Shown: positions 29,836-63,410, numbered from the stretch's first letter. The stretch: DNA of 64,000 nucleotides from an uncultured candidate division Zixibacteria bacterium (GCA_963713865.1 OY970208.1:288001-352000); one strand, 5' to 3'. Notes: generated from the sequence alone by a model not told the origin. A program made the numbers and translations.

Positions 29836-30085
29836 ATATTTGGTCCTTTTTGGTTTAAATCCGCCATATGCGGATAAAACTCTGTGTGTGGAAAAAGCAA
29901 GGATAATGCCGAGAAATAGCAAAAAACAAAGTTCTATCTAACTATCGTTACTTTTAGAGGTTAAAGCTTAAAATTAAAATGAACCTTTTTAATACACCTT
30001 TTTTTGAATCAAAAATTGTGGGGATAAACCTATAATTTATGGCTTTTACACCTTCTAAGAAAGTAAGCAAAAAGGAGAAAATAGA

Positions 30086-31501
30086 ATGAGTAATTCTAAA
30101 AAGCCCGACAGTAATCCCAGGGGACTGGATAAACTTTTCCATCTCCGGGAACTCAATACCAATTTCAGGACCGAGCTTTTAGGTGGGGTCACAACATTTC
30201 TTACTATGTCTTATATTATCTTTGTCAACCCGCTTTTCTTAAGTTTTTTCGGTGATCCCAATCTCAAAAATTTAGCTCTCCCCTTCTCTGCCTCGATGAC
30301 TGCAACTTGTCTTGCTTCTGCCTTGATGTGCATCTTGATGGGTTTGTGGACTAATTACCCCTTCGCTTTAGCTCCAGGCATGGGATTGAATGCGATAGTC
30401 TCCTACCAGATGGTTTTGAGTATGGGTTTATCCTGGCCCCAGGCAATGGGGATTATCGTCTTAGAGGGTATTGCGATTACTATTCTGGTTATTACCGGCT
30501 TCAGGGAAGCGGTTATGAACTCTATTCCGATGTCCTTGAAACAGGCAATCTCCATCGGGATTGGTCTTTTTTTAGCCTTTATTGGTCTCCAGAATGCTGG
30601 CTTTGTGAAATCCCATCCGGTTACTTTTGTGACCTTAGGTGATTTCACTAAATGGCCCATTTTAGTCTCTGTAATTGGACTTCTGTTTACTGCGATAATG
30701 ATGAAAAGGAAAGAAAAGGGTGCTTTACTCATAGGAATCGCTTTTTCCACGGTCTTAGCTATTATAATAAATTATCTTTCAGGACTCTCTGCTTTTCCGG
30801 AACAGGGGAAGGCAATCATACCTGAATCTGTCTTCTCTGCCCCGGATTTATCTACCTTTGGAAAGTTTGATTTTTCCGCTATTTTAAAATTAGGGCTTCT
30901 CCCTGCTCTGATGCTCATATTCTCGGTTATGCTCTCTGATTTTTTCGACACCTTAGGCTCGGTGATAGGACTGGGAACCGAGGCAAAGTTTTTAGATGAG
31001 AAAGGGAATCTTCCCCGCATCAATCGGGTGCTTTTAGTCGATTCCTTATCTGCGGTTATGGGAGGGATAAGCTCTTCCAGCTCAGTTACCACTTATATCG
31101 AGAGTGCGGCAGGCATCTCTACAGGTGGAAGAAGTGGACTTTCCACAGTAGTTGTGGGCATACTTTTCTTTCTGGCAATCTTCTTCTCCCCTTTAGCTGG
31201 TGTAGTACCCAAAGAGGCAACTGCTCCAGCCCTTATTATAGTAGGGTTTTTGATGCTTACCATAATCAAGGAAATCCCTTTTGATAAATTTGAGGAGGTT
31301 TTTCCCGCTTTCTTGATAATGATAGTTATGCCCATGACCTATTCCATCACAAACGGAATAGGGTTTGGCTTTATTTCTTATACTCTGATAATGCTTCTCT
31401 CGGGAAAGGGGAAACAGGTTCACCCGCTGATGTATCTGGTCTCAGTTGCTTTTGTGCTTAATTTCCTATTACCGGTTTTGAAGATGGTTTTTAAGTTTTA
31501 G
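30086..31501 (+). CDS. NCS2 family purine permease (AzgA/PbuG-like)
   Basis: GGVTTFLTMSYIIFVNP, ALAPGMGLNA, DFFDTLG, TTYIESAAG..GGRSGL, TYSITNGI. Confidence 0.93.
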   Translation: MSNSKKPDSNPRGLDKLFHLRELNTNFRTELLGGVTTFLTMSYIIFVNPLFLSFFGDPNLKNLALPFSASMTATCLASALMCILMGLWTNYPFALAPGMGLNAIVSYQMVLSMGLSWPQAMGIIVLEGIAITILVITGFREAVMNSIPMSLKQAISIGIGLFLAFIGLQNAGFVKSHPVTFVTLGDFTKWPILVSVIGLLFTAIMMKRKEKGALLIGIAFSTVLAIIINYLSGLSAFPEQGKAIIPESVFSAPDLSTFGKFDFSAILKLGLLPALMLIFSVMLSDFFDTLGSVIGLGTEAKFLDEKGNLPRINRVLLVDSLSAVMGGISSSSSVTTYIESAAGISTGGRSGLSTVVVGILFFLAIFFSPLAGVVPKEATAPALIIVGFLMLTIIKEIPFDKFEEVFPAFLIMIVMPMTYSITNGIGFGFISYTLIMLLSGKGKQVHPLMYLVSVAFVLNFLLPVLKMVFKF

Positions 31502-31567
31502 ATGGTAGCGACAGATCATTGATCTGTCCTTGCATTATTTAAATCTTTATATTTGAGGAGGTGAAAA

Positions 31568-31921
31568 ATGGGTAATTCTATCTGTCATATTGAGATTTCT
31601 ACAACAGATCTTAAAAAAGCTGAAAAGTTTTATTCAGAGCTTTTCAGCTGGAAGGTTACAGCCTGGGAAGGTTCTTCAGATTATTTAATGTTTGATACCG
31701 GCAAGGAGCCAGGCGGAGGGATTATGAAAGTAGATAAGGTTAATCCTGGTGATGGGGTCCTTATCTATGTTCTGGTGGAGGATATTGAGAAGACCCTGAA
31801 TAAAGCCAAAAGCTTAGGCGGTAAAATAATCAAGGAGAAAACAGAAATCTCGTCTATTGGCTGGTTCGGGCTATTAGCTGATTTAGACGGGAATATCATC
31901 GGAATTTTTAAGAGCAGATAA
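31568..31921 (+). CDS. VOC/glyoxalase family protein
   Basis: ICHIEI...AEKFYSELFSW, GGGI, IYVLVEDI, DLDGNIIGI. Confidence 0.88.
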   Translation: MGNSICHIEISTTDLKKAEKFYSELFSWKVTAWEGSSDYLMFDTGKEPGGGIMKVDKVNPGDGVLIYVLVEDIEKTLNKAKSLGGKIIKEKTEISSIGWFGLLADLDGNIIGIFKSR

Positions 31922-31993
31922 TAAGTCTATCTTTTAATTATGGCAGGGGCAATTTCCATTTGGATACATCCGGATATGAATAGCCCCTGCTAT

Positions 31994-33043
31994 TTAACGA
32001 GCTATCCCTGCTTCTCGAAAATATTCATAGATAGCTTCCGCTATAACCTGGTGCCCTTTCGCATTATAGTGGATATAATCCTCCCTCCCGCTGTCATAAA
32101 GGTCGCCCCGATCCTCAAAAAGCAAAGCCACATCCACCAGGGGAACTTTTATCTCCTTAGAAAGCTCCCTTAGGGCTGCATTGTAATGTTTATTGGCGAT
32201 ATGCGGTTTCGAAGTCTTACCTGGACCCAAAAATATCCGGGCGGAGGAGACCGGTGTGCTTAGAAATATCACCTTAATGCCTGAGTCCTGGGCTATTTCT
32301 ACCATCTCCTTTAAATTGACAATATAATCCATCAACGATACCCTGTATCCGAGTTTCATTTCCTCCGGTGCTTTTTTACTCAATTTTAACAAATTCATAA
32401 TCTCAAATTTCAAAAAAGAATAGATCTTTGAAAAAGAAAGACAATCGTCTATGTTCAAAATCCACTGAGGTGGAAATTTTTGATCCTTATCTTTTCGGGT
32501 TGACACACACATATCGTTCCAGCCATAGGAGAGAATGATGATATCCGGATGAAACCTTAAAATCTCTCTTTTAAGAAATCTCAGACCCTGATAGGTACTG
32601 TATCCGGTCATTCCGGCATTTATCACCTCAAACTCCGGTTGGGGTAAGTTCTGGTTCAAAAGGACTTCCAATCTCTTGGCATAGGTCTGTTCTGAATCAA
32701 CCTTCCAGCCAAAGGTACAGGAGTTACCCATACAGATTATCCTTTTCATATTCGGATTTTTGTTCTCGGAGAATTCTTTATCCCGGTAACCCTTTGAGTT
32801 TATCTTATAAATCCCGTCCACAAAGAACTTTCCTCTGATGGTCTGATTGGGTCTGATCCTCCAGAAAAGCTCGGAATCCTTTTTGTAATACTTAGGGTAA
32901 TTGAGCTCTGGGTTCAAAAGAAAGGTTTTATCTGGATATATTTGAATATTTATCAGTCTGAAAAAAAGCTCCCCCAACAACAAAAACAAAATGACGCTTG
33001 AAAAAGAGAAAAGCAGGGTTTTGGAGAGTTTCGGTTTATCCAT
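31994..33043 (-). CDS. SGNH/GDSL hydrolase-like protein
   Basis: INSKGYRD, MGNSCTFG, INAGMTGYST, GWND, DYIHYNAKGH. Confidence 0.85.
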   Translation of the reverse strand: MDKPKLSKTLLFSFSSVILFLLLGELFFRLINIQIYPDKTFLLNPELNYPKYYKKDSELFWRIRPNQTIRGKFFVDGIYKINSKGYRDKEFSENKNPNMKRIICMGNSCTFGWKVDSEQTYAKRLEVLLNQNLPQPEFEVINAGMTGYSTYQGLRFLKREILRFHPDIIILSYGWNDMCVSTRKDKDQKFPPQWILNIDDCLSFSKIYSFLKFEIMNLLKLSKKAPEEMKLGYRVSLMDYIVNLKEMVEIAQDSGIKVIFLSTPVSSARIFLGPGKTSKPHIANKHYNAALRELSKEIKVPLVDVALLFEDRGDLYDSGREDYIHYNAKGHQVIAEAIYEYFREAGIAR

Positions 33044-33049
33044 CAGAAT

Positions 33050-33217
33050 TTAGAAAAGAGAATAAATGAAAGGGGCAATGACCGAGCTTTCCGCAAAGAT
33101 TATAAGCAATGAGAGGATGAGCAGGATGAAGATTATCGGTCCCAGCCAGTATCTTTTCCTGAACCGAATGAACTGCCAGAACTCCTTGAAGATCGAAAAA
33201 CGAGAGAAAAAACTCAT
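33050..33217 (-). CDS. DUF5989/SxtK-like small membrane protein (55 aa), not in the ORF track
   Basis: MSFFSRFSIFKEFWQFIRFRKRYWLGPIIFILLILSLLIIFAESSVIAPFIYSLF*; AAGGAG SD; typical RKxYWLxP...APFIYxLF motif. Confidence 0.85.
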   Translation of the reverse strand: MSFFSRFSIFKEFWQFIRFRKRYWLGPIIFILLILSLLIIFAESSVIAPFIYSLF

Positions 33218-33231
33218 ATTATCTCCTTTAT

Positions 33232-33869
33232 TGTCATTCTGACCCTGCCAAAGGCGGGGGAAGAATCTAATCTTTTTTAGTATCCAGATGCTTCGCTTCG
33301 CTCAGCATGACACCTCCCACCTTCGCTTGTCATTCTGAGCCCTACTGGCGAAGAATCTCTTCTTTTCTATTTGAGATTCTTCACTTCATTCAGAATAACA
33401 CCTCCCATCCCCTGTCATTCTGAGGGAGTTCCCTACAAGGGCGACCGAAGAATCTCAATAAATTCCTCATTTAAATCCTTCCATTCTGGATTAACTGATT
33501 CTATCAAGCTAATTTTCTTAATCCTCAACCATCCTTTAATCTGTTTCTCTCTGGTAATAGCACTTCTCACATCTTCTGTCATTTCATAATAGACTAATTT
33601 AGTGAGATTATATTTCTTGGTAAATCCCGCAATTAACTTATTCTTATGCTCATACATTCTGCGTTCTAAGTTATTAGTAACTCCTGTATATATAGTTCCT
33701 GAGTTATTAGTTAAGATATAAACATAATACTGTTTCATATTTTTTCAATGAAATTTTCAGATACTTCGCTTTGCTCAGTATGACACCTCCCACCTTCGCT
33801 TGTCATTCTGAGCCCTACTGGCGAAGAATCTCTTCTTTTTTATTATCAGATGCTTCGCTTAGCATGACA
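33232..33869. repeat. Cluster of TGTCATTCTGAG...GAAGAATCT / AGAT(T/G)CTTCG...ATGACA REP-like hairpins around a GIY-YIG gene, including 82-bp direct repeats
   Basis: Near-identical direct repeats at 33285-33366 and 33758-33839; same family at 62938-63011 and 63282-63368. Confidence 0.85.
33433..33738 (-). CDS. GIY-YIG nuclease family protein
   Basis: YYVYILTN..TIYTGVTNNLERRMYEHK, LVYYE, AITREKQIKGW.R..K..LIE..NPEW.DL. Confidence 0.93.
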   Translation of the reverse strand: MKQYYVYILTNNSGTIYTGVTNNLERRMYEHKNKLIAGFTKKYNLTKLVYYEMTEDVRSAITREKQIKGWLRIKKISLIESVNPEWKDLNEEFIEILRSPL

Positions 33870-33881
33870 ACACTCAATCAT

Positions 33882-35615
33882 TTAATCCTGAGCAAACAAC
33901 TTCTCATACGAGAACTCCTCCTTAAGAGGAGGCATCTCCTCTTTATCTAATACGAAATTACCCATAATAAGGTAGTCCATCCCGGAGCGCCTAAAGGAAA
34001 GATAAGCCTCTTCTGGAGTACAGACGATCGGCTCACCTCTTAAATTAAAAGAGGTATTCAAAAGGGCTGGATACCCGGTCAGGTTATAAAATTCTGCGAG
34101 CAGGTCATAAAAAAGCTGGTTCTCCTCTCTTTTCACGGTCTGTAATCTAGCTGAGCCGTCTACATGAGTTACTGCTGGAATCTCTTTACTCTTCACCTGA
34201 AAAGTCAGAAGCATAAAGGGGGAAGGTCTATCTATTTCAAAAAAATCCTTTGCTTTCTCCCAGATAATACTGGGCGCAAATGGCCTGAAACCTTCACGAT
34301 ATTTTACCTTTTGATTCACTCTATCCTTGTTCTCTGCCTTTCGAGGATCAGCTAAAATGCTCCGGTTACCTAAAGCTCTGGGACCAAATTCCATCCTGCC
34401 CTGAAACCAGCCCAGGATATTCTGTTCTGAAAGAAGTTTAGCAGCAAATTTAAGTAGTTCAGCCCGATTATATTCCTTATAAGTTATCCCCTCACAAATT
34501 AAAAAATCTTTTATCTGATCTTGTGAAAATCCCGGACCCAAATAGGCATCTTTCCATACAAAACCCCTCTGATTATTTAGAAGGGTGTAATAGATATAAG
34601 CTGCTACTCCCACTGCACCACCGGCATCGCTTGAACCAGGCTGAATAAAAAGCTCCTCCATAGGAGTCTCTTTTAAAATCCTTGAATTAGCCAAGCAGTT
34701 TAAGGCAACACCGCCGGCTAAGCATAAATTTTTCAAACCGGTTTCTTTATATAAATTGTTCGTCATCTTTAAAACAATCTCTTCAGTTACTTTCTGCAAA
34801 CTCGCAGCCATATCTTTATGCAGTTTTTTAATCTCAGTCTCAGGTTTTCTGGGAGCTGAACCGAAAAGTTTATCAAACCGGCCATTGGTCATCTTCAAAC
34901 CATAATCATAGGAGAAGTATCTCATATTCAGCTTGAAACTGCCATCTTCTTCTAAATCAACCAGCTCTTTCATTATAAGATCATAATGGACTGGCTCACC
35001 ATAGGGAGCCAATCCCATCACTTTATATTCTGCACTGTTCACCTTAAAACCTAAATAATAGGTGAAAGCACTGTATAAAAGCCCCAAGGAATGCGGGAAC
35101 CTCATCTCATATAAAAGCTCAATCTGATTATCTTTACCCATCCCGTATGCACCGGTCGACCACTCGCCCACTCCATCTATGGTAAGTATGCCTGCCTCTT
35201 TAAAGGGGGAGACCAAAAAACTTGACCCCGCATGGGAGAGGTGGTGCTCGATCATCAATACTTCTCCCTTATAATCAAGCTCCTTACGAATCAGAGATGG
35301 TATCCAGAGCTTTTCTTTCAGCCACATAGGAGTTGCCATCAAGAACGAGACAAAAGATTTTGGAAAGGTAGCTAAGTGCGAAAATAAAATCCTTTCGAAT
35401 TTGATAAAAGGTTTCTCATAGAAACCTATATAGTCAAGCTCCTTGGCAGATATATTTTCAGTGGAAAGGCAATAATTGATCGCTCGTAGAGGAAAGTTGG
35501 AATCGTGTTTAAGCCGGGAAAACCGTTCCTCCTGAGCTGCAGCTACTATCCTGCCATCTTTGAGCAAGGCAGCCGCTGAATCGTGATAAAAAGCTGAGAT
35601 ACCTAAGATATACAT
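33882..35615 (-). CDS. Carbamoyltransferase (NodU/CmcH/SxtI family)
   Basis: ILGISAFYHDSAAAL, AQEERF, EHHLSHA, IDGVGEW, EYKVMGLAPYG, AGGVALNC, GRMEFGPRALGNRS, LNTSFN. Confidence 0.95.
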   Translation of the reverse strand: MYILGISAFYHDSAAALLKDGRIVAAAQEERFSRLKHDSNFPLRAINYCLSTENISAKELDYIGFYEKPFIKFERILFSHLATFPKSFVSFLMATPMWLKEKLWIPSLIRKELDYKGEVLMIEHHLSHAGSSFLVSPFKEAGILTIDGVGEWSTGAYGMGKDNQIELLYEMRFPHSLGLLYSAFTYYLGFKVNSAEYKVMGLAPYGEPVHYDLIMKELVDLEEDGSFKLNMRYFSYDYGLKMTNGRFDKLFGSAPRKPETEIKKLHKDMAASLQKVTEEIVLKMTNNLYKETGLKNLCLAGGVALNCLANSRILKETPMEELFIQPGSSDAGGAVGVAAYIYYTLLNNQRGFVWKDAYLGPGFSQDQIKDFLICEGITYKEYNRAELLKFAAKLLSEQNILGWFQGRMEFGPRALGNRSILADPRKAENKDRVNQKVKYREGFRPFAPSIIWEKAKDFFEIDRPSPFMLLTFQVKSKEIPAVTHVDGSARLQTVKREENQLFYDLLAEFYNLTGYPALLNTSFNLRGEPIVCTPEEAYLSFRRSGMDYLIMGNFVLDKEEMPPLKEEFSYEKLFAQD

Positions 35616-38249: not shown

Positions 38250-38491
38250 AAATGGACAGAATCCACCTGAGGCGGATTCTGTACCTACACGAAAAATAAC
38301 AGGGGTCCCGCCAAAGGCGGGACGACCGGAGTTTATTCACCTTGGCGAAGGTCATGAACCCTTTAAGATTGAATCCTTAAGTCTTTTAAAAATTAGCTAT
38401 TACAAAGCCACGCAAAAACTTACTAATTCTTGGACTATCCATAATAACCCACACAAAACCCATAATAACCTAATCCAAATTGAAACAGGCA
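38250..38491 (-). pseudogene. Decayed copy of the REP + tRNA-fMet 3' half + flank block also present at about 41372-41590
   Basis: AAATGGACAGAA..TTCTGTACCTAC, AAAAATAACAGGGGT, TTCACCTTGGCGAAGGTCATGAACCC, TATTACAAAG, ATCCATAATAACCCAC align with 41372-41590. Confidence 0.7.
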
Positions 38492-41285: not shown

Positions 41286-41465
41286 ATTGCGGGGGTCCCG
41301 CCAAAGGTGGGGGATGGACAACCAGCCTGCAAAAATATACGTTAATCAATAAATCCGAGTTATCCTCAAAAAAATGGACAGAACGATGTTCTGTCCCTAC
41401 GCAATAAATAAAAAATAGCGGGGGTTGGATTTGAACCAATTCGCCTTGGCGAAGGTTATGAGCCC
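41286..41465 (-). pseudogene. tRNA-fMet remnants: decayed copy (41287-41330) and 3' 50 nt with mini-palindrome (41416-41465)
   Basis: TAGCGGGGGTTGGATTTGAACCAATTCGCCTTGGCGAAGGTTATGAGCCC is identical to the array units; the whole block is homologous to 42532-42732. Confidence 0.8.
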
Positions 41466-42133: not shown

Positions 42134-42531
42134 TCTGTGACCAGTTAGTAATTAGGTAAAGAAGCTGGGGGTCCCCAAAATGGACGAGTTTATAACTTTT
42201 TTGATATCAGAGAATTTTGATATACATGCCAAATTAGTTGAGTTCTGTCATTGGGTGCCTTATGGGACGATGTTAGAACCTGTTTCATGGTCTCAAGTTA
42301 AGTTTACCCCGACCATGTTTACACTATTTCTTCTCTGACTACCCAAAGGGCGTCAGAATATTCTCAGGTTAGCTACGGGGGCTTATTTTTTGTAATTAAT
42401 TAAACCAAAGAAACACAGACAGGGGTAGGTTCAGATATATTCCGGAGCTGTGGAAGTGTTAAACTTTGAGGCAGAAACGAGGCAAAAAGAGCCGAATTAA
42501 TTTTTGGCTCTTGTAAGTCCTTGTATTTCAA

Positions 42532-42595
42532 TAGCGGAGGGTGGATTTGAAGGGCGACCTTCCCCCGCCTTTGGCGGGAGACGGACTACCAGCCT
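42532..42595 (-). pseudogene. Decayed tRNA-fMet copy with the anticodon hairpin replaced by a mini-palindrome
   Basis: TAGCGGAGGGTGGATTTGAAGGGCGACCTTC[CCCCGCCTTTGGCGGGA]GACGGACTACCAGCCT versus the tRNA's ...CGACCTTC[GGGTTATGAGCCC]GACGAGCTACCAGCCT. Confidence 0.75.
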
Positions 42596-42682
42596 AAAAA
42601 AATATCCGTTAATCAATAAATCCGAGTTAACCTCAAAAAAATGGACAGAACGATGTTCTGTCCCTACACGACAAATAAAAAA

Positions 42683-42769
42683 TAGCGGGGGTTGGATTTG
42701 AACCAATTCGCCTTGGCGAAGGTTATGAGCCCGACGAGCTACTCCGCCGCAGGCGGACTCCACCCTGCG
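42683..42769 (-). pseudogene. Pseudo-tRNA-fMet (87 nt) with two palindrome replacements; identical copies at 43027-43113 and 43371-43457
   Basis: CGCAGGGTGGAG[TCCGCCTGCGGCGGA]GTAGCTCGTCGGGCTCATAACC[TTCGCCAAGGCGAA]TTGGTTCAAATCCAACCCCCGCTA. Confidence 0.9.
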
Positions 42770-42998
42770 ACATTTCGTCTATAAATTCCCTACCTTTTCC
42801 AGTTTTCAACCACCTCTCCCTTTTAACAGCTTCTCCTCTGCTGTCGAACTCCTCTGAGTAAATCACCCGCCAGTTACTATCTACCTTTGTAGTTTTACAT
42901 AATCCAAAATTATGCTCCGATAACCTGCGTCCTAAATCGGAAGTATACCCAGTATATTGTTTTCCTTTAGCAGATTGAAGCACATATACTGTAAACAT
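42723..42998 (-). CDS. GIY-YIG nuclease family protein (copy 3)
   Basis: VYVLQS...QYTGYTSDLGRRLSEHN, WRVIYSEEF..RGEAVKRERWLKTGKGREFI. Confidence 0.92.
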   Translation of the reverse strand: MFTVYVLQSAKGKQYTGYTSDLGRRLSEHNFGLCKTTKVDSNWRVIYSEEFDSRGEAVKRERWLKTGKGREFIDEMSQGGVRLRRSSSSGS

Positions 42999-43066
42999 AA
43001 GAGGAAATCAGAGGGATAATAAAAAATAGCGGGGGTTGGATTTGAACCAATTCGCCTTGGCGAAGG

Positions 43067-43342
43067 TTATGAGCCCGACGAGCTACTCCGCCGCAGGCGG
43101 ACTCCACCCTGCGACATTTCGTCTATAAATTCCCTACCTTTTCCAGTTTTCAACCACCTCTCCCTTTTAACAGCTTCTCCTCTGCTGTCGAACTCCTCTG
43201 AGTAAATCACCCGCCAGTTACTATCTACCTTTGTAGTTTTACATAATCCAAAATTATGCTCCGATAACCTGCGTCCTAAATCGGAAGTATACCCAGTATA
43301 TTGTTTTCCTTTAGCAGATTGAAGCACATATACTGTAAACAT
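43067..43342 (-). CDS. GIY-YIG nuclease family protein (copy 2)
   Basis: Identical to copies 1 and 3. Confidence 0.92.
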   Translation of the reverse strand: MFTVYVLQSAKGKQYTGYTSDLGRRLSEHNFGLCKTTKVDSNWRVIYSEEFDSRGEAVKRERWLKTGKGREFIDEMSQGGVRLRRSSSSGS

Positions 43343-43410
43343 AAGAGGAAATCAGAGGGATAATAAAAAATAGCGGGGGTTGGATTTGAACCAATTCGCC
43401 TTGGCGAAGG

Positions 43411-43686
43411 TTATGAGCCCGACGAGCTACTCCGCCGCAGGCGGACTCCACCCTGCGACATTTCGTCTATAAATTCCCTACCTTTTCCAGTTTTCAACCA
43501 CCTCTCCCTTTTAACAGCTTCTCCTCTGCTGTCGAACTCCTCTGAGTAAATCACCCGCCAGTTACTATCTACCTTTGTAGTTTTACATAATCCAAAATTA
43601 TGCTCCGATAACCTGCGTCCTAAATCGGAAGTATACCCAGTATATTGTTTTCCTTTAGCAGATTGAAGCACATATACTGTAAACAT
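43411..43686 (-). CDS. GIY-YIG nuclease family protein (copy 1)
   Basis: Identical to copies 2 and 3; starts 28 nt after the tRNA discriminator base. Confidence 0.92.
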   Translation of the reverse strand: MFTVYVLQSAKGKQYTGYTSDLGRRLSEHNFGLCKTTKVDSNWRVIYSEEFDSRGEAVKRERWLKTGKGREFIDEMSQGGVRLRRSSSSGS

Positions 43687-43714
43687 AAGAGGAAATCAGA
43701 GGGATAATAAAAAA

Positions 43715-43788
<74 letters not shown>

Positions 43789-43817
43789 ATCATAGTCTAA
43801 TTAAATAGACGGGTAGT

Positions 43818-49869: not shown

Positions 49870-50943
49870 TTATCGGGTACAATTGCACCTTATCTTCCTA
49901 TAATCCATATCCGGGGATTCGAACCCGGATTTCAATTTTTCCCACATTTGCACGGTTTCCTTACAAAGAGAGACATCGGTATAATTGTATTTTTCTTTAA
50001 GGTGATTAATCAAGTGCAGGTACATAGTATACCTATTGGAGAATTCTATCTTTTTGCCCCAGTTTGACTTCTCTTCCAAGTAAATTTTCCAGGATTTATC
50101 TTTAGTTCCATTAATGGTGCTTTGCAAACCCCTTAAAGAGCCTAAAGTTATACGCTCAGGTTTGAATTCTGTAAAGATCTGGTCAATCAACTCAATATAA
50201 CTCTCTTGCCATCCAGAAATTGGCACCATCGGGTCTATTCTGACCCTTATCTCATAACCAGCTTTAGCTAACTTGCCTGCCGCTTCTATTCGTTTTGAAA
50301 CCGGAGGCGCTTTTTTCTCCCATTTTTTTGCAACCTTATCTGCATTCAGACTGAAGCTGATGATTGCTTGTTTATGTGATTCTATTTCAAGTAAATTTTT
50401 AATTTTAGTTGATTTGGTCAAAAATAAAACTTTATGTTTATTTTGAGACTCAAACAGCGGAATGATGAATTTAGAGAAAGGGTTGTGTCCGTTTTCGCAC
50501 ATTAGGGAATCAGCAATTTCTCCAGTATTCAGGATTTCAGGTGGTAGAGACGTCTCGCCAGAGGCGGACGTCTCTACATCAAAAAATTCTCTGACGTGCT
50601 GTTCAATTTTAGCATAATCTTTAATAACCGGTTTTATCCCTTCTGGTCGAAACCTGAAAGTCCCCTTTAAATAACACCAACTGCAATCAAACGGACACCC
50701 ATAAGCCCATTTAAGCTCTAAAAAATGCGGACAGACCACATCAGTGGATTCAACAGGTAAAGGTGTTTTTTCAAATCTCGTGATAATCGAACCATCACCA
50801 ATACGTTGAACAAGTCGTTTCTCGGAAGCATCAATCAATTTATATGGTCTAATAACAACTCTCAATGAAGCTTTTTCTTTCTTAGATAGTAAGCTTCTTT
50901 CTTTGACTATACTTGAGATATTAGAGAAAGGTAATTCTGTCAT
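49870..50943 (-). CDS. Spore photoproduct lyase-like radical SAM protein
   Basis: GCPFDCSWCYL (CxxxCxxC), NTGEIADSL, LTKS, SFSLN, RIEAA...GY.IRVRIDP, ITLGSLR. Confidence 0.8.
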   Translation of the reverse strand: MTELPFSNISSIVKERSLLSKKEKASLRVVIRPYKLIDASEKRLVQRIGDGSIITRFEKTPLPVESTDVVCPHFLELKWAYGCPFDCSWCYLKGTFRFRPEGIKPVIKDYAKIEQHVREFFDVETSASGETSLPPEILNTGEIADSLMCENGHNPFSKFIIPLFESQNKHKVLFLTKSTKIKNLLEIESHKQAIISFSLNADKVAKKWEKKAPPVSKRIEAAGKLAKAGYEIRVRIDPMVPISGWQESYIELIDQIFTEFKPERITLGSLRGLQSTINGTKDKSWKIYLEEKSNWGKKIEFSNRYTMYLHLINHLKEKYNYTDVSLCKETVQMWEKLKSGFESPDMDYRKIRCNCTR

Positions 50944-52030
50944 TTTCTTTTAATCCAGTTTTCTTAGAACTAATACGTTTTATACTTACTTTTTGCTCTT
51001 GTTCTAGTTCTTTTAATGCTAGATTGTAATGTTTTTTTACATATGGAGGTTCTTCATACCAAGGTACACAAACTTCCTTTTGTATTTCATTATAAGTTTT
51101 TATGTTTCCTTTAAATCGACCTAATAAATATTTTTTTAAATCTTCAATATTATTAATATTGAACAACGTTATTTGTGATCTTGCTGATATATCTTCTGGT
51201 CCTAAATATGCAAAATTTCCTTCAGTGCTCTGTTTGTCCATTACATCTTTCATTATCGAATGTCCTAAAAAATTATTAGTGGCATGAATTAAATAATATA
51301 CAGTTTGCCTTTTTTCATCGGTGCATACACGAAAAGGCCAAGAATACTTTAATCCTGCAATTTCATGCAAATTTTGTCTATAAAGATCTATTAATGCTAT
51401 TTCCTGGTTTTCTTTTGTCGCTACAATCTCTTTCCATCCATCATTACCAAATAATTCATTGAAGGTCTCTTTAAGTTTCTCATGTAAGAGGAAACGGTTT
51501 ATGTCTCGAACCATAAAAGTGAAAAATATCTCTGTTCTGGGATTGGACAATATTTTTTTGACTATGTTGAAAGGAATTCCTGAAAAACCAAAAGGGTCGA
51601 CAAAAAAGAATGATGGAGCCAGTATATACTTCTGTTGCTCCAAATCTTTAAAAATCTCTTCAATGACAATAGCAAATTCATCATTCTTTTTTATAATTTC
51701 AATTTTATTAATATGTTTTATTTTAGGTGTTTCCCTTTTTAAAACGGATTCAAGGTTTTTAAAATTTTCTAAATTTCTTTCTATAAATATACAGATAAAC
51801 TTTTCATAATACTTCTGAAGTTCATCTGCAAGTTTAAGTGCGATTAAAGGAGAACCAGGAGATCTATCAGTATATTCACCTCTCCCCGCAAAACCATCAA
51901 AATAACATATATGTCTGAATGAACTGCCGAGAATGGTAATCCATGCTTTTAGATACTTCTCTAAAAGAATATGTTTTACTCGAGTATGCTCGCGATACGT
52001 CCATTTTTCTAAATCATTATTTTTTAACAT
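50921..52030 (-). CDS. Three-Cys-motif partner protein (TcmP)-like, SAM-methyltransferase-like fold (ORF-track start 52081)
   Basis: HTRVKHILLEKYLKAW, YFDGFAGRG, GSPLIAL, FFFVDPFG, YYLIHATNN..G...MK. Confidence 0.8.
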   Translation of the reverse strand: MLKNNDLEKWTYREHTRVKHILLEKYLKAWITILGSSFRHICYFDGFAGRGEYTDRSPGSPLIALKLADELQKYYEKFICIFIERNLENFKNLESVLKRETPKIKHINKIEIIKKNDEFAIVIEEIFKDLEQQKYILAPSFFFVDPFGFSGIPFNIVKKILSNPRTEIFFTFMVRDINRFLLHEKLKETFNELFGNDGWKEIVATKENQEIALIDLYRQNLHEIAGLKYSWPFRVCTDEKRQTVYYLIHATNNFLGHSIMKDVMDKQSTEGNFAYLGPEDISARSQITLFNINNIEDLKKYLLGRFKGNIKTYNEIQKEVCVPWYEEPPYVKKHYNLALKELEQEQKVSIKRISSKKTGLKENDRITFL

Positions 52031-52209
52031 ATCTCTACCCCTTTTTTCAATTTCAGTACTGTATCCGAATGCAGGTCGCAAACCAAAGCTTTAGAATGAA
52101 GTTTTTTTGCCTTGGTAGAAATATCAACCACCCCGAAAGCTATTTGAAACAAAAAAAATAGAGCAAATATTGAGATTGTCGTTTTCATAGATAAATTAAA
52201 AGATTGAAA

Positions 52210-57434: not shown

Positions 57435-57506
57435 ATACAGTGGTCAGTGTTCAGTCCGCTTGAGGTGGAGTGGCGAGTTTTACTGACCACTAATTAAGGA
57501 GGGGTT

Positions 57507-59053: not shown

Positions 59054-59081
59054 ACAGTAGGCAGTAGACAAGGGAAAAACT

Positions 59082-59389: not shown

Positions 59390-59461
59390 AAAATAAAAAG
59401 TCCCCCTCACGGGAAACCTTTTAACGACCGGGAGACACCCCGATCCCATTTCAAAACTTTC
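59390..59461 (-). ncRNA. Candidate small RNA with its own promoter and terminator
   Basis: TTGACT (59491-96)-N17-TAAATA with overlapping TATAAT; hairpin GATCGGG-GTGTCT-CCCGGTC; terminator GGTTTCCC-GTGA-GGGGGACT plus U-tract; no minus-strand gene downstream. Confidence 0.4.
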
Positions 59462-59585
59462 TAATTATATTTACGGCAGAAAAAAGAAAAAGTCAAGTAG
59501 TTTTAAAAGAATTTTTTAAGTTATTGACCCAAAAGGGCTTGAGCGGAGATTACTCCAAGCCTACGCAATTGTAGGGTAGTGCAAT

Positions 59586-59948: not shown

Positions 59949-60925
59949 AACAAACAGTAAATCCGAAGGTATTTATAAGCCATGCAAGCGAAGATAAAGA
60001 ACGCTTTGTTATAGACTTTGCAACAAAACTTCGAGAAAAAGGTGTAGACGCTTGGCTTGATAAATGGGAGATGAAACCAGGAGATAGTTTGGTTGACAAA
60101 ATTTTTGAGGAAGGTATAAAAGGAAGTGAGGCTTTCATAATCATCTTATCCAAAAACAGCATTAACAAAAAGTGGGTTAGGGAAGAATTGAATTCAGCTG
60201 TAGTTCAAAAAATAGAAAAAAGCACAAAATTAATCCCTGTTATTATTGATGAAAGTATTGAGGTTCCGGTAAGTTTAAAACATACTGTTTGGATAACAAT
60301 AAAAGATTTACAACATTATGTAGAGGATTTTGAACAACTACTTCTATCGATTTACGATATTGTCCAGAAACCTCCATTGGGAGAAAAACCTAAGTATGCA
60401 ACTGATATAGAGATTATACCAGGTTTCAACAAAACCGACTCATTAGTATTTAAGATTGTTGGAGATATTATCTATGAAAAAGATTATATCGGAAGATTTC
60501 TAAGTTGTGGAGAAGCAATAGAAAGAGCATCTAAGTTTGAAATCCCAAAAGAAGAAGTTATTGACTCCATAGAAATTTTAGGGTCAAAAGGTTTATGGGA
60601 AATAATGTGGGTATCGGGTGGAATAGAGGTATCTACAATTGCAATGACTCCTTATAGTTTTGTAAAGTACTGTGAAAATTTCGTAGAAGATTTTAATAGA
60701 ATATTTAAAAATATCATATCAGCAATTCTTAATGAAGGTTTGTATATAGATGAAGAAATTACATCGAAGGTAGGATGCAAATCAGTTATAGTAGATACTC
60801 TTTTGGATTATTTTCATGATGTAGGTTATATTGAACTCAACAAATCGCTTGGAGGACCTAGCCAAGTTGTTGAGATTACTTCTTTAGGAAAAAGACAATT
60901 CAGGAATATATTAGAAGACGAATGA
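59945..60925 (+). CDS. TIR-domain protein
   Basis: KVFISHASEDK, GVDAWLDKWE..PGDSL..KI, ILSKNSINKKWVREELNSA, LIPV; winged-helix-like end EITSLGK. Confidence 0.9.
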   Translation: MKQTVNPKVFISHASEDKERFVIDFATKLREKGVDAWLDKWEMKPGDSLVDKIFEEGIKGSEAFIIILSKNSINKKWVREELNSAVVQKIEKSTKLIPVIIDESIEVPVSLKHTVWITIKDLQHYVEDFEQLLLSIYDIVQKPPLGEKPKYATDIEIIPGFNKTDSLVFKIVGDIIYEKDYIGRFLSCGEAIERASKFEIPKEEVIDSIEILGSKGLWEIMWVSGGIEVSTIAMTPYSFVKYCENFVEDFNRIFKNIISAILNEGLYIDEEITSKVGCKSVIVDTLLDYFHDVGYIELNKSLGGPSQVVEITSLGKRQFRNILEDE

Positions 60926-61040
60926 ATTAAACATATGTCTATTCGACTACAAATACCCTCTGTAATTAGAAAATACTCAAAATGTTATTTTTTTAACAAA
61001 CCATCTTCCCTCTATGATACTCTCTAAGCAAATTCTCTTT

Positions 61041-62673
61041 TTATAACCCCCCCTTCACAATCTCCCACGGAAACAAATAATCTTTTGGTTTTTCTTTAAA
61101 GGCTAAGAATTCCATCTCTACTCCTGCTTTCCTAAAAGCCTGTGCCAGAGGCAGGTTTTCTTTGATATGGTAATAAATCCCCATCCCTACTTTCCTATTC
61201 CCCTGGGATAAAACTCCTTGCAGGGTTGCTTCTTTTATGCTTTTCTTTTCAAATTTAATCCCTTTCAACGCTCTTATTCCATCTGAGATTATTTTTAATT
61301 TTTCCCGCAGGGATTTTTCAGAGTCCATTGGTGCCCATTGGAAAGGAGTAAAGGGTTTGGGAACAAAAGGGTTTATGGAAAGGATGATTTGTCTTTTTTC
61401 GAAGACTCTGAGCGAAGTCAAAGAGCGGGTCTCCCCTACATTTTGGCGGGAGGTCATAAAGACCTCCCCTACATCTTTAATCAAATCCACAATCCCCTTA
61501 ATATCCTCTTTTTTCTCAAAAGGAAGTCCAACAATAAAATAAAGCTTCAGCTTCTCCAAATTTTTCTCTTTGGCTAACCGAACTGCATTTAAAACATCTT
61601 TGCGCTCTATTCTTTTATCAATTATCTTCCACATCCTTTCAGTCCCGGCCTCAGGAGCAAGTGTCAGTGTTTTAAGTCCGGATTTAATCAGAATATCTAA
61701 AAGATTTGAAGTAACTTTATCTACTCGCAGGGATGAAATCCCTATTTCATATCCTTTTTGATATAACTCAGAGCAAAGCTCCTCCAGAAAAGGCAGATCC
61801 GAGACCATCGAGCCTAAAAGCCCGACAGATTTTGCTCCTCCAGCTATATTTTTCGATCTCAGAGATAATCTTTTCCTTTGTATGAAACCTGAAAGGCTTA
61901 TAAATCTGCCCGACTGCGCAGAATTTGCATTTCCAGGCACATCCCCTTTCGGTCTCAACTATGAACATATTTTTAAAGTGAGAAAAAGGAGTAACAATCG
62001 AAGAATAAGTCTCAAGTTTTTCAAGATTAGCTTTTCGCCTTTCGATTTTCGCAGGAAATCCCTTTTCAATTTTATATTTCTTTAAAAAACCTTTTTCATC
62101 ATAAACCGGCTCGTAAAATTCGGGAATATAAACACCTTTTACCTTAGTTAGCTCTAAAAGGAGCTTTTTCCTGGGATAACCTTTTTTAAAAATCTCAGCC
62201 ATCTCAATAATCCCTTGTTCTGCTTCACCGATAAAGACAGCATCGAAAAAGGGTGCCATAACCTCAGGATTCAAAGTAACAGCCACTCCACCAGCCATGA
62301 GAAAAGGATGGCTCTCATTTCTATCCTTTTTTAATAGAGGGATTTTTGCCTGCTTTAAAATCTTTAAAATATTCAGATAATCTAACTCGAAAGGGACCGA
62401 GAAAGAGATGATTTGAAAGAAATTCAAAGGGTCACCTGATTCCAAGGTTCTAACTTTATCTTGAGGTTTATAATCGAAAAGAAAGAATCTTTCGCAGGAG
62501 ACGCCCTCAATCTGATTTAAGATTCTATAAATCGATTGAAATCCTAAATTAGCAATCCCCACTTCATATTTATTGGGAAACCCTAAAGCCACTCTCAATT
62601 GATATGAGCTTTTGATTATGGTTCCCTTTTCCCGGGATAGAATCTCTTTTCTTATCTTATCGAATTCTCTCAT
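61041..62673 (-). CDS. B12-binding-like radical SAM protein (TIGR03960/YgiQ-like; one extra base near 61845)
   Basis: FPNKYEVGIANLGFQ, FSVPFELDY, FIGEAE, ETERGCAWKCKFC, then SSLRVD, TLAPEAGTER, KLYFIVGLP, FVPKPFTPFQW. Confidence 0.85.
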
Positions 62674-62704
62674 CTTTTCAAACGATTAGAATCTCTCTCC
62701 CTCT

Positions 62705-63410
62705 GGGGTAGCCGCAGACTTTATATCTGCGTAACTCCGCAACCTAAAGGTTGCAGCTACCTTGTGATTTTCATTTATCCCTCCCTTCCAGGGAGGGACA
62801 AAGGGAGGGTGATTGATTTTCATAACACATCCCTCTCTCTCCGCCTCTGGCGGGATTTTCAACCTAACCCTCTCCCACAAGGGAAGAGGAAACTATGTAC
62901 CGAAGGGCTTGATAAATCAAGCCCCTACAATTCTTCTTGTCATTCTGAGGAAGCGTAAGCGACCGAAGAATCTAAAGATTCTTCGTCCGCCTTTGGCGGA
63001 CTCAGAATGACATAAATAACTATATAAGACTTCTTGAACAACCAACTACTATAGACTATTCTTTTATCTCTCTTCTAAAGTTTAACATCATAATTATAAA
63101 AAATAAAAAGTGTTTCTCCAAGAAAATAAAACGTCCGGGATAAACCCGGACGCTACGAACTGCCCTCATGTTTTTTTGTAGGGACAGAACATAGTTCTGT
63201 CCTCAAATACAAGGGGCGGGTTTCAAACCCGCCCCTGCCTAAGCGACCAAAGGGAGTGTTGAAAAACTAGAACCGAGAGAGTGTCATTCTGACCCCGCCA
63301 ATGGCGGGGGAAGAATCTATGCGTGAATCAAGGAGATTCTTCGGTCACTGCGCTCCCTCAGAATGACAGGGTTGGCTTATTCAACAGTTCCTGAAAAGTC
63401 GCACTACGAA
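62705..63410. repeat. Dense mosaic of REP-like hairpins from several families
   Basis: GTAGCCGCAGA..TCTGCG, CGCAACCTAAAGGTTGCAGCTAC, GGGCTTGATAAATCAAGCCCCTAC, two TGTCATTCTGA..CAGAATGACA, CGTCCGGG..CCCGGACGCTAC, GTAGGGACAGAA..TTCTGTCC, GGGGCGGGTTT..AAACCCGCCCC. Confidence 0.8.

What the first reader, a model, noticed from the sequence alone, without database searches (positions are those of the whole stretch)
29860..63309. A 14-17 bp mini-palindrome (YCCGCC-N3-GGCGGR) repeatedly replaces loops of pre-existing hairpins
Seen: copies at 29860, 33244, 38262, 38306, 41296, 42564, 42743/43087/43431, about 50554, 62840, 62986 and 63293, with a TTCGCC-N2-GGCGAA variant at 38336, 41440 and 42707/43051/43395. 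Filled and empty versions can be compared inside this window. REP GGACAGAA-CGATG-TTCTGTCCCTAC (41376, 42643) becomes GGACAGAA-TCCACCTGAGGCGGA-TTCTGTACCTAC (38254). The tRNA anticodon hairpin is replaced at 42563, the T-arm region at 38306 and the D-loop in the array. The inner hairpin of the TGTCATTCTGA repeat family is replaced at 33244, 62986 and 63293 but not at about 33329 or 33801. The stem is conserved while the 3-nt loop varies (AAA, TTT, TGA, GCA, AGA, TCT, AAT, ATA). There is replacement without an obvious target-site duplication. Inference: an ultra-short non-autonomous element written into stem-loop targets, possibly by the GIY-YIG protein that carries it at its own 3' end, loosely analogous to REP/RAYT pairs but without an HUH transposase.
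Basis: partly seen in the sequence, partly recalled or inferred. Interest (0 to 1): 0.85.

Follow-up and report, generated by a model that had tools for sequence, protein, structure and literature searches.

The report
Tiny GC hairpin cap invading hairpin tips
A 15-17-base GC-rich mini-hairpin is repeated a few hundred times in this uncultured bacterium and repeatedly takes the place of the tip of other DNA hairpins, including helices of ribosomal RNA, so it behaves like one of the smallest mobile DNA modules seen, though the enzyme behind it is unknown and is probably not the nuclease first suspected.

Summary
YCCGCC-N3-GGCGGR occurs 8 times in the window (0.01 expected) and 116 times in the 2.72-Mb genome (0.4-0.7 expected; backwards control 0), with about 150 one-mismatch copies.

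- **Location:** 105 of 116 copies lie outside long ORFs. They sit in more than 60 unrelated sequence contexts.
- **Hosts:** the motif usually forms the apex of a larger hairpin. Hosts include several REP families, tRNA remnants, 16S h17, 23S H45, RNase P P3 and an FMN riboswitch. Some copies lie inside octamer tandem repeats.
- **Replacement:** orthologous sites in relatives show the apex alone exchanged. One site inside a radical-SAM gene shows three states: empty, REP, and REP with cap.
- **Copying:** identical 15-17-mers, including an asymmetric T-bulge subtype, recur in unrelated hosts. This argues for copying rather than convergence.
- **Distribution:** all 31 genomes sampled from the order are enriched.
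- **GIY-YIG link: not supported.** These mini-genes are tRNA-linked elements. 15 of 20 such loci in relatives carry no cap, and the clade is common in cap-poor genomes.

Best reading: a nested, non-autonomous hairpin-cap repeat, closest to cyanobacterial SDRs and REP loop variants. The mechanism is unresolved. This scan has noted similar nested mini-hairpins before, on this genome and on others.

The parts
33243..33259 (.). Cap variant CCCTGCC-AAA-GGCGGGG at the apex of a TGTCATTCTGA...GAAGAATCT hairpin
   Evidence: The ortholog in G001 has a different apex, GTCCCC-GCA-GGGGAC, between flanks that are otherwise conserved.
38261..38277 (.). Cap (CCACC-TGA-GGCGG) filling the REP GGACAGAA...TTCTGTAC
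38306..38322 (.). Cap TCCCGCC-AAA-GGCGGGA in a decayed tRNA-fMet remnant (T-arm side)
41296..41312 (.). Cap variant (CCGCC-AAA-GGTGG) in a strongly reduced tRNA-fMet remnant
41376..41400 (.). Empty REP GGACAGAA-CGATG-TTCTGTCCCTAC (second copy at 42643-42667)
42563..42579 (.). Cap replacing the anticodon stem-loop of a tRNA-fMet-like remnant (42530-42605, minus strand)
   Evidence: Compared by eye with the real tRNA at 43714-43789.
42680..43710 (-). Three tandem 344-bp units. Each holds a 91-aa GIY-YIG ORF (42723-42998, 43067-43342, 43411-43686) plus a partial tRNA-fMet copy. The copy carries cap TCCGCC-TGC-GGCGGA in the D-loop (cores 42744, 43088, 43432) and TTCGCC-AA-GGCGAA in place of the 3' anticodon-stem and variable-loop segment (42707, 43051, 43395).
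43714..43789 (-). Intact initiator-type tRNA-Met (CAT), the uncapped reference for the remnants
50544..50577 (.). GTAG-tagged REP GTAGAGACG...CGTCTCTAC lying in frame inside a radical-SAM/SPL-like gene (49870-50943, minus strand). Its apex is replaced by the T-bulge cap subtype TCTCGCC-AGA-GGCGGA.
62839..62855 (.). Cap at the centre of a ~79-nt repeat unit that is absent as a whole from G001
62985..63001 (.). Cap TCCGCC-TTT-GGCGGA at the apex of AGATTCTTCG...CTCAGAATGACA. G001 has CTATCG here.
63293..63309 (.). Cap CCCCGCC-AAT-GGCGGGG in a TGTCATTCTGA unit. The surrounding ~148 nt are absent from G001 and from one contig of run X1.
33433..33738 (-). 101-aa GIY-YIG ORF flanked on both sides by TGTCATTCTGA-family hairpins. 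It is context only and not shown to act on caps.

Best explanation
YCCGCC-N3-GGCGGR, effectively 15-17 nt, is a family of gene-less GC-rich mini-hairpin repeats ("caps"). The family is long-lived in this order of Zixibacteria.

**How caps spread**
- An existing cap is copied into the apex of another DNA hairpin, or into short tandem repeats. It displaces the loop and a few adjoining base pairs and leaves a continuous helix.
- Caps also ride passively on REP-type repeats that carry them.

**Where they survive**
Insertion is orientation-neutral. Copies persist where an apical extension is harmless: intergenic REPs, tRNA remnants, terminator tips, variable helices of rRNA, RNase P and a riboswitch, and rarely in frame in a protein loop. 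Copies then decay by C-to-T and G-to-A transitions.

**Shown**
- Excess over chance, intergenic bias and apex position.
- Orthologous apex-only replacement.
- Identical units in unrelated hosts.
- Distribution across the whole order.

**Inferred**
The reaction itself. My preferred version is that an extruded hairpin tip is cut or stalls replication, is trimmed, and is repaired by short templated copying from an ectopic cap (a template switch). About 0.3 of the 0.55 confidence rests on that version. No cap-specific enzyme is identified.
For: **Excess**
- 116 copies against 0.37-0.73 expected; 0 copies of the backwards motif; it is the commonest of all 5-3-5 palindromes in the genome.

**Position**
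- 11 of 116 copies lie in ORFs of at least 150 aa, although 82% of the genome does.
- Flanks pair at -10 kcal/mol or better in 37 of 116 sites, against 11% for shuffled partners and 6.6% for random positions.

**Independent contexts**
- 217 relaxed copies fall in 118 flank clusters, 87 of them singletons.
- The 15-mer CCCGCCAAAGGCGGG stands in 15-16 unrelated contexts and the 17-mer TCCCGCCAAAGGCGGGA in 11. Sharing collapses at 19-21 nt.
- The asymmetric subtype YCTCGCC-N3-GGCGGR has 26 copies, in REPs, in TGTCATT families in both orientations, and in singletons.

**Pairing is kept**
- The sixth pair is C-G in 54, T-A in 50 and T.G in 8 of 116.
- The compensated subfamily CCGCT-N3-AGCGG has 13 copies in the same kinds of host.

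**Decay**
- 124 one-transition against 33 one-transversion copies.

**Replacement at orthologous sites, G000 against 438 kb of G001**
- Genome positions 350987, 321245, 1272620, 2653478, 2601176 and 1435905; G001 C1:61040, C1:80853 and C1:148401.

**Three-state series in the radical-SAM gene**
- No element in G006 and four genomes of other families.
- A 28-nt REP in G003 and G008.
- The REP with a cap in G000.
- The other 13 of 14 REPs of that family in G000 are uncapped.

**Structured RNAs**
- TCCCGCCTTTGGCGGGA caps 16S h17 in 3 of the 5 sequences from the window's family (G000, G001, G005). G008 has a variant of it, G007 a different hairpin, and the 7 others do not have it (G003, of the window's family, has a TTCGCC-TTT-GGCGAA variant; the 6 from other families have unrelated or longer apexes) (12 sequences aligned).
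- It caps 23S H45 in 3 of 3 sequences from the window's family and 0 of 5 from other families.
- A cap-like apex forms RNase P P3, and a cap lies in the FMN riboswitch match.

**Distribution**
- 31 of 31 genomes of the order hold 30-487 copies, against 0-17 for the control.
Against: - No mobilising enzyme was found.
- No event was caught between near-identical strains. G001 is only about 86-91% identical in genes, so every "empty" or "other" state could also have changed after the split.
- Most differences are replacements rather than clean insertions. That fits a transposon poorly, and hypervariable tips under selection for stable GC caps would give the same picture. Other GC triloop caps such as CCCC-N3-GGGG do occupy the same orthologous tips.
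- Persistence over a whole order and presence in rRNA and RNase P genes would also fit a selected function.
- Loops differ between orthologous shared caps: TCA against GGA, and TTT against ACT.
- There is no strand bias relative to replication: AAA 14 against TTT 20 on the leading strand, and the T-bulge arm on the leading strand in 10 of 26. The usual signature of single-strand HUH transposition is therefore missing.
- Only 37 of 116 sites have strongly pairing flanks.
Confidence: 0.55

Rival explanations
1. The caps are minimal REP-type substrates moved by the RAYT-like Y1 (HUH) transposases of these genomes, which act on single-stranded hairpins.
For: - Y1_Tnp (PF01797) matches are found in 31 of 31 genomes of the order, 8 of them in G000.
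- Cap density correlates with their number, rho 0.42-0.45, nominal p 0.01-0.02, across 31 related genomes.
- 41 of 116 caps lie within 32 nt of a GTAG or CTAC tag, against 33 of 232 control positions. Many hosts are therefore GTAG REPs.
Against: - 0 of 8 RAYT-like genes in G000 has a cap within 1.5 kb, where 26% of random 3.3-kb windows do.
- The cap itself has no adjacent GTAG tag (1 of 116).
- There is no replichore bias.
- Apex replacement is not the known RAYT or TnpA chemistry; this point is recalled, not tested.
- The correlation may only reflect general REP richness and shared ancestry.
Confidence: 0.15
2. The motif is not mobile. It is a selected structure, for example a very stable DNA or RNA triloop hairpin or the site of a hairpin-binding or dimeric DNA-binding protein, that arises repeatedly at hairpin tips.
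For: - The stem is conserved while the loop is free. The sixth and seventh pairs covary, and there is a compensated CCGCT/AGCGG subfamily.
- The excess is conserved across the whole order.
- The motif is tolerated in 16S, 23S, RNase P and a riboswitch.
- Different GC caps occupy the same orthologous tips.
Against: - Identical 15-17-mers and a destabilising T-bulge subtype recur in unrelated hosts.
- Orthologs differ by block replacement, not by stepwise substitution.
- There are many decaying copies.
- There is no terminator signature: a T-run follows 22 of 116 caps against 53 of 232 controls.
- Caps are not concentrated in divergent promoter regions: 10 of 104 intergenic sites against 17% of intergenic bases.
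Confidence: 0.2
3. One reading: the small GIY-YIG nuclease writes the cap into stem-loops and carries it at its own 3' end.
For: - In G000, 3 of 6 GIY-YIG loci have a cap within 300 nt.
- The tandem array and the tRNA-Ser(GCT) locus carry caps just after the ORF.
- Endonucleases have been proposed as mobilisers of yeast mitochondrial GC clusters (passage in PMC4478555).
Against: - 15 of 20 GIY-YIG loci in relatives have no cap in the stretch fetched. The 5 that do include 4 tRNA-Ser loci.
- rho is 0.27, p 0.14.
- G026 (224 caps) and G004 (40 caps) have no match with this query.
- 81 of 101 genomes of the phylum have matches, including cap-poor ones: G062 with 1 cap and 2 matches, G082 with 3 and 4, G068 with 8 and 5.
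- The ORF's 3' overlap with a cap results from reading into a tRNA remnant.
Confidence: 0.05

Closest known systems
Small dispersed repeats (SDR4-6) of Nostocaceae (Elhai et al. 2008, Genome Res 18:1484)
   Same: Both are very short, gene-less, hairpin-forming dispersed repeats with compensatory changes. Both nest in other repeats and in short tandem repeats, insert precisely, and differ between relatives. Their mobilising mechanism is unknown. The 2008 paper itself was not held. I saw only passages in PMC5861425 and PMC4390886: SDR5 inserts precisely inside HIP1, and SDRs were not found outside Nostocaceae. The remaining points are recalled.
   Different: - SDRs are 21-27 nt; this unit is 13-17 nt.
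- The phylum differs (Zixibacteria).
- Here the event is a replacement of a hairpin apex rather than insertion at a fixed octamer.
- Caps also sit in 16S, 23S and RNase P helices.
- Sequence relatedness could not be tested.
REP/BIME and GTAG- or CGTC-tagged REPs with alternative loops (Di Nocera et al. 2013, PMC3733652; REPIN-RAYT, PMC3116915)
   Same: - Both are intergenic palindromes in high copy.
- REP families are described with alternative, self-complementary GC-rich loop variants whose proportions differ between species.
- Some REPs sit inside small palindromes or in frame in genes (passages seen).
- Many hosts here are GTAG REPs.
   Different: - The cap has no GTAG or CGTC tag.
- It is shared by many unrelated REP families and by structural RNAs, rather than being a loop variant of one family.
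- No RAYT gene is flanked by it.
Palindromic GC clusters of yeast mitochondria (GC42; Wu and Hao 2015, PMC4478555)
   Same: GC-rich hairpin elements in an AT-richer genome. Changes concentrate in the loops. Units merge and shuffle, presence and absence vary between strains, and the mechanism is unresolved, with endonucleases or reverse transcription proposed (passages seen).
   Different: - About 42 nt, with a putative AG target-site duplication; none is seen here.
- Organellar.
- Not described in those passages as replacing hairpin tips.
Rickettsia palindromic elements (recalled; mentioned in a passage of PMC3733652)
   Same: Palindromic repeats tolerated in frame inside protein genes. The REP plus cap in the radical-SAM gene is the parallel here.
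   Different: RPEs are far longer (recalled). Here only 1 of 14 copies of that REP family lies in the gene, and only 11 of 116 caps lie in long ORFs.
Quasi-palindrome template-switch mutagenesis (recalled from the E. coli literature; not read here)
   Same: It is a replication-linked process acting at hairpin tips that rewrites short stretches in one step, without target duplication.
   Different: It copies from the other arm of the same palindrome. Here a constant foreign 15-17-mer appears, so an ectopic donor would be needed.

Membership tests
REP / REPIN-RAYT | Short imperfect palindrome, high copy number, intergenic | tested here: met
   116 exact copies, with 105 of 116 outside ORFs of at least 150 aa. 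The unit is only 13-17 nt, shorter than the 20-40 bp quoted for REPs in the abstract of PMC3733652.
REP / REPIN-RAYT | Conserved GTAG (or CGTC) tag at one end of the element | tested here: not met
   GTAG or CTAC lies within 6 nt of the cap in 1 of 116 copies. The tags found within 32 nt (41 of 116) belong to the host REPs.
REP / REPIN-RAYT | A cognate RAYT gene flanked by the repeats | tested here: not met
   0 of 8 Y1_Tnp-like genes in G000 has a cap within 1.5 kb.
REP / REPIN-RAYT | Inverted doublets (REPINs) at fixed spacing | not tested
   Spacing between caps was not analysed.
Small dispersed repeats (SDR) | Dispersed repeat of 21-27 nt | tested here: not met
   The shared unit is 15-17 nt, and sharing between contexts collapses at 19-21 nt. 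The SDR size is recalled from the abstract.
Small dispersed repeats (SDR) | Common hairpin supported by compensatory changes | tested here: met
   The sixth pair is C-G in 54 and T-A in 50 of 116. The CCGCT/AGCGG subfamily has 13 copies.
Small dispersed repeats (SDR) | Nested in other repeats and in short tandem repeats; differs between relatives | tested here: met
   REP hosts, GGTTYAAA octamer arrays and orthologous differences.
Small dispersed repeats (SDR) | Sequence relatedness to SDR4, SDR5 or SDR6 | not testable with these tools
   The paper and its sequences were not held.
Intrinsic terminators | GC-rich hairpin followed by a T-run | tested here: not met
   A T4 run lies within 12 nt of the stem in 22 of 116 caps, against 53 of 232 control positions. 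A few individual caps do sit on terminator-like stems, at genome 2653478 and after the 5S gene.
DNA transposon / MITE | Terminal inverted repeats with target-site duplication | tested here: not met
   Filled-versus-other comparisons show replacement of 5-14 nt by 15-17 nt with no duplicated flank.

The most novel reading that the evidence does not exclude
These bacteria possess an undescribed hairpin-tip editing pathway. A host or selfish enzyme recognises extruded DNA hairpin tips, removes them and installs a templated 15-17-nt cap. That would make the cap the smallest self-propagating DNA unit known, and one able to remodel rRNA, RNase P and riboswitch helices as well as selfish repeats.
Probability: 0.25. 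Interest if true: 0.85.

Novelty: new variant of a known kind. Interest (0 to 1): 0.62.

Why it matters
- **Size limit of mobile DNA.** If the caps are truly copied into hairpin tips, they push the lower size limit of mobile DNA to about 15 nt. They would point to a reaction, replacement of a hairpin apex, that no described transposase performs.
- **Rewriting of essential RNAs.** The same 17-mer has rewritten variable helices of 16S and 23S rRNA, and a cap-like apex forms RNase P P3. This gives a concrete route by which selfish repeats shape essential RNAs.
- **A defined system for testing.** The three-state series in the radical-SAM gene and the 1-in-14 capped REP supply defined "before" and "after" sequences.
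- **Annotation of the GIY-YIG mini-genes.** The negative result corrects a tempting assignment. These genes look like tRNA-gene-linked mobile elements in their own right.

Tried and rejected
- **Reads from public runs.** No run held more than 0.23 of the sampled words. Contigs of X1, X3, X6 and X9 piled up on the repeat-rich stretch 62677-64000 at depth 100-450, so the indels at cap loops there mix many loci and organisms. The only usable results were one X1 contig that skips 63250-63397, and two contigs that replace 50005-52037.
- **Strand bias relative to replication.** None was found. The skew-based origin and terminus are themselves uncertain.
- **RAYT adjacency.** None.
- **Terminator reading.** Rejected.
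- **Promoter or operator reading.** Not favoured. Of 104 intergenic sites, 76 are co-directional, 18 convergent and 10 divergent, against 72%, 11% and 17% of intergenic bases. Genes were approximated by ORFs only.
- **GIY-YIG link.** Rejected.
- **16S h17 as the source of the cap.** Rejected. Families whose h17 lacks the cap are still cap-rich.
- **Gene conversion from a capped paralog as the origin of the capped REP in the radical-SAM gene.** Rejected. The other 13 of 14 family members in G000 are uncapped.
- **The 29860 copy and a general TTCGCC-N2 variant.** Rejected.
- **Literature.** Elhai 2008 is not held. Searches found no description of this motif or of caps shared across REP families and rRNA. 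Supplements were not consulted.

Full report
**Setting.** The window is G000:C1:288001-352000 of a single-contig genome of 2,723,046 bp and 40.4% GC. Earlier notes of this scan call the organism a Zixibacteria chromosome. I did not verify the taxon name. The cyanobacterial HIP1 octamer occurs only twice.

**Is the motif real?**
- CCGCC-N3-GGCGG occurs 8 times in the window against 0.01 expected. None of 100 shuffles reached 8.
- It occurs 116 times in the genome. It is the commonest of all 5-3-5 palindromes; the next commonest stem, AAAAA, has 83.
- Markov chains of order 1-4 predict 0.37-0.73 copies.
- The same letters read backwards, GGCGG-N3-CCGCC, occur 0 times. Other loop lengths are rare: N2 4, N4 13, N5 2, N6 2.
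- One-mismatch relatives add 124 transition and 33 transversion copies. This is the pattern of a GC-rich repeat decaying in an AT-richer genome.
- The next pair outward is pyrimidine-purine in 104 of 116 copies (C-G 54, T-A 50), plus 8 T.G. Loop position 1 is T or A in 100 of 116, and position 3 is A or T in 96 of 116.
- A compensated subfamily, CCGCT-N3-AGCGG, has 13 copies in the same kinds of host.

- The copy at 29860 is not a member.
- The TTCGCC-N2-GGCGAA "variant" is confined to the duplicated tRNA-fMet remnants. These account for 4 of the 5 copies in the genome.

**Where does it sit?**
- Only 11 of 116 copies lie in ORFs of at least 150 aa, although such ORFs cover 82% of the genome. 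Most of those 11 are within 50 nt of an ORF end.
- The 20-nt flanks outside the cap pair with each other at -10 kcal/mol or better in 37 of 116 sites. The figure is 11% for shuffled partners and 6.6% for random positions. At -12 kcal/mol or better it is 25 of 116, against 4.2% and 2.9%.
- Clustering the flanks of 217 relaxed copies gives 118 contexts, 87 of them singletons.
- The larger clusters are distinct repeat families:
  - the GTAG-tagged REP GGACAGAA...TTCTGTCC;
  - the TGTCATTCTGA...GAAGAATCT and GTCATTGCGAG...CGAAGCAATC hairpins, where the cap stacks on a tandem G.A motif;
  - AGGGGCACGTTG...;
  - GGTTGAAAATC...;
  - and others.
- The GGACAGAA REP exists with a 5-nt centre (mostly CAYTG or CARTG) or with a 15-16-nt cap, and with nothing in between.

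**Structured RNA genes carry it too.**
- Rfam places genome position 1310415 inside the 16S gene, 1314342 inside the 23S gene and 1369015 inside an FMN riboswitch match.
- A cap-like CCCCACC-UAU-GGCGGGG forms the P3 hairpin of RNase P RNA.
- In 16S helix h17, TCCCGCCTTTGGCGGGA is present in G000, G001 and G005. G008 and G003 carry TTCGCC variants. G007 and the six sequences from the other families of the order have different or longer tips (12 sequences).
- In 23S helix H45, exactly the same 17-mer is present in G000, G001 and G008. G011 has a different hairpin, and four family-f2 genomes have an expansion of about 70 nt (8 sequences).
- H45 is, from recall, a classic site of intervening sequences.
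- Families without the rRNA caps are still cap-rich. The rRNA genes are therefore targets, not the source.

**Is it copied or convergent?**
- Identical units recur in unrelated flanks. CCCGCCAAAGGCGGG is in 15-16 contexts, TCCGCCTCAGGCGGA in 8-10, and the 17-mer TCCCGCCAAAGGCGGGA in 11. At 19 nt the best unit is shared by 4 contexts and at 21 nt by 2. The unit is therefore about 15-17 nt.
- The same leading 15-mer tops the list in 438 kb of G001.
- An asymmetric subtype with one extra T, YCTCGCC-N3-GGCGGR, has 26 copies. They occur in the GGACAGAA REP, the GTAGAGACG REP, TGTCATT-type hairpins in both orientations relative to the host, and singletons.
- A destabilising bulge shared across unrelated hosts is hard to explain by selection for a stable hairpin. 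Descent from a template explains it easily.

**Orthologous comparisons.** G001 belongs to the same genus. Its 16S is 99% identical and its genes are about 86-91% identical. I compared the window's syntenic stretches and 400 kb more of G001.

Apex-only differences between conserved flanks:

| Site | G000 | G001 |
|---|---|---|
| genome 350987 | TCCGCCTTTGGCGGA | CTATCG |
| 321245 | CCCTGCC-AAA-GGCGGGG | GTCCCC-GCA-GGGGAC |
| 1272620 | GTCCGCC-TTT-GGCGAGAC | GTCCCC-GAA-GGGGGC |
| 2653478 (terminator-like stem AAAAAAGGCAG...CTGCCTTTTTT) | cap | a different tip |
| G001 C1:61040, C1:80853, C1:148401 | different tips | caps |

Further observations from the same calls:
- Caps inside GGTTYAAA octamer repeats are present in one genome only: genome 2601176 and 1435905, and G001 C1:102663 and C1:126733.
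- Shared caps can differ in the loop: TCA against GGA at 1117413, and TTT against ACT at 1426777.
- Whole host units carrying caps are also present or absent: 350841, 1426835, and G001 C2:16411 and C2:38198.
- No comparison shows a target-site duplication.
- In nearly every case 5-14 host bases are replaced by 15-17.

**The clearest case** lies in the radical-SAM/SPL-like gene at window 49870-50943. Protein alignment of 10 orthologs shows an in-frame extra segment only in G000, G003 and G008. At the DNA level:
- G006, G013, G009 and G019 have no element.
- G003 and G008 have a 28-nt GTAG REP, GTAGAGACG-CATGGCCATG-CGTCTCTAC in G003.
- G000 has the same arms with the central 10 nt replaced by the 16-nt T-bulge cap. 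This adds two codons.

In G000 this REP family has 14 copies, and only this one is capped. Conversion from a capped paralog of the same family is therefore excluded. Identical 16-mers exist elsewhere, at genome 2633010 and 1404705.

**Distribution.**
- All 31 genomes sampled from the order hold 30-487 copies, against 0-17 for the backwards control.
- In a sample of 101 genomes of the phylum, most genomes outside the order have ratios near 1-3. A few are strongly enriched: G054 46:1, G091 86:2, G114 87:8.

**The GIY-YIG idea.**
- G000 has 8 small GIY-YIG ORFs at 6 loci, plus UvrC.
- Four of the six loci lie directly after a tRNA gene (fMet, Gly-TCC, Ala-TGC in the rRNA spacer, Ser-GCT) and are followed by a partial copy of that tRNA.
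- The middle of the remnant is a cap in the fMet and Ser cases. It is another small hairpin, TCCATCTGGA, in the Gly case, and is simply deleted in the Ala case.
- In relatives, 20 of 20 fetched GIY-YIG loci lie beside a tRNA gene, but only 5 of 20 contain a cap, and 4 of those are tRNA-Ser loci.
- Cap density does not track GIY-YIG number: rho 0.27, p 0.14, over 31 related genomes.
- Cap-rich G026 (224 caps, 89% complete) and G004 gave no match with this query.
- 81 of 101 genomes of the phylum have matches, including cap-poor ones.
- I conclude that the nuclease genes are tRNA-linked mobile elements whose decaying tRNA copies are good hosts for caps, not the writers of caps.

**Other candidates and readings.**
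- Y1 (RAYT-like) genes are present in all 31 genomes, and their number correlates weakly with cap density (rho 0.42-0.45). None of the 8 in G000 has a cap within 1.5 kb, and the cap carries no GTAG tag.
- Loop orientation and the T-bulge arm show no bias relative to the skew-inferred replication direction.
- T-runs are not enriched after caps.
- Intergenic class is only mildly shifted toward convergent gene pairs.

**Mechanism.**
- Shown: a constant 15-17-nt palindromic unit appears in one step in place of the tip of unrelated hairpins or within short tandem repeats. It appears in either orientation and without duplication of the target. It then decays.
- Inferred: the tip of an extruded hairpin is cut or stalls synthesis, is trimmed back a few pairs, and is rebuilt by copying a cap from elsewhere. 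The continuous helices at most junctions and the replacement-type events fit this better than transposase-type insertion. No step has been observed.

**Comparison with what is known.**
- The closest described systems are the SDRs of Nostocaceae. I saw only passages in citing papers, because the original was not held.
- Next are the alternative GC-rich self-complementary loops of GTAG REP families (passages of PMC3733652).
- Then the yeast mitochondrial GC clusters (passages of PMC4478555).
- The present case differs in four ways:
  - its size;
  - one cap is shared by many repeat families and by rRNA, RNase P and riboswitch helices;
  - the event is an apex replacement;
  - it occurs in a different lineage.
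- My searches found no description of it. Supplementary files were not seen.
- Earlier AI notes of this scan describe nested mini-hairpins in this genome and in other Zixibacteria, Chloroflexota and Bacteroidota. I treated them as leads only.

**Verdict.** The reading as a mobile mini-element is plausible at about 0.55. The GIY-YIG link is not supported. I class it as a new variant of a known kind, with moderately high interest.

Noticed in passing
window 42680-43790; genome 2133100-2133740, 1312530-1313150, 2706150-2706770: Small GIY-YIG ORFs (87-120 aa) sit directly beside tRNA genes, with a partial copy of the same tRNA on their far side. This holds for 4 of 6 loci in G000 and for 20 of 20 loci fetched from relatives. 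At tRNA-fMet the unit is triplicated in tandem with a 344-bp period. They look like tRNA-gene-targeting homing-type elements.
   Followed up: partly
genome 1312630-1312833 (L001 about 3631-3834); G001:C3:103825-104034: One of these GIY-YIG mini-genes lies inside the 16S-23S spacer, right after tRNA-Ala(TGC), in both G000 and G001.
   Followed up: no
window 33180-33890: The 101-aa GIY-YIG ORF at 33433-33738 is flanked on both sides by several TGTCATTCTGA-type hairpins in inverted orientation. The layout is reminiscent of RAYT genes flanked by their REPs.
   Followed up: no
genome about 1,687,880 against G001:C1:60134; also genome 1609534, 2342140 and three more: A second 17-nt mini-element, GTCTCAAGACCTTGACG, sits in the loop of GTAG REPs of the GCGAGGC type. 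There are 5 copies in G000 and 4 in 438 kb of G001. At one orthologous REP it is a clean 17-nt loop insertion, present in G001 and absent in G000.
   Followed up: partly
genome 1435905, 2601176, 2113587, 2129498; G001 C1:48680, 102663, 126733: Caps recur inside GGTTYAAA octamer tandem repeats, as ...GGTTTAA-TCCGCC-N3-GGCGGA-CAAAGGTT... This parallels SDRs inside heptamer repeats of Nostoc (recalled).
   Followed up: partly
window 50005-52037: A variable island holds most of the radical-SAM gene and a wHTH-domain ORF. About 1.1 kb of other sequence replaces it in G001 and in contigs of runs X1 and X3.
   Followed up: no
genome 1312542-1312614: The genuine tRNA-Ala(TGC) has CCGCC/GGCGG as its anticodon stem, around the normal 7-nt loop.
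   Followed up: no
genome 1316405 (L001 about 7406): A cap forms the apex of a terminator-like hairpin (AAATTTGTC...GACAATTTTG followed by Ts) 12 nt after the 5S rRNA gene.
   Followed up: no
whole genome: The cumulative GC skew has its minimum near 2.70 Mb and its maximum near 1.91 Mb. This would mean very unequal replichores, or an unreliable skew signal.
   Followed up: no
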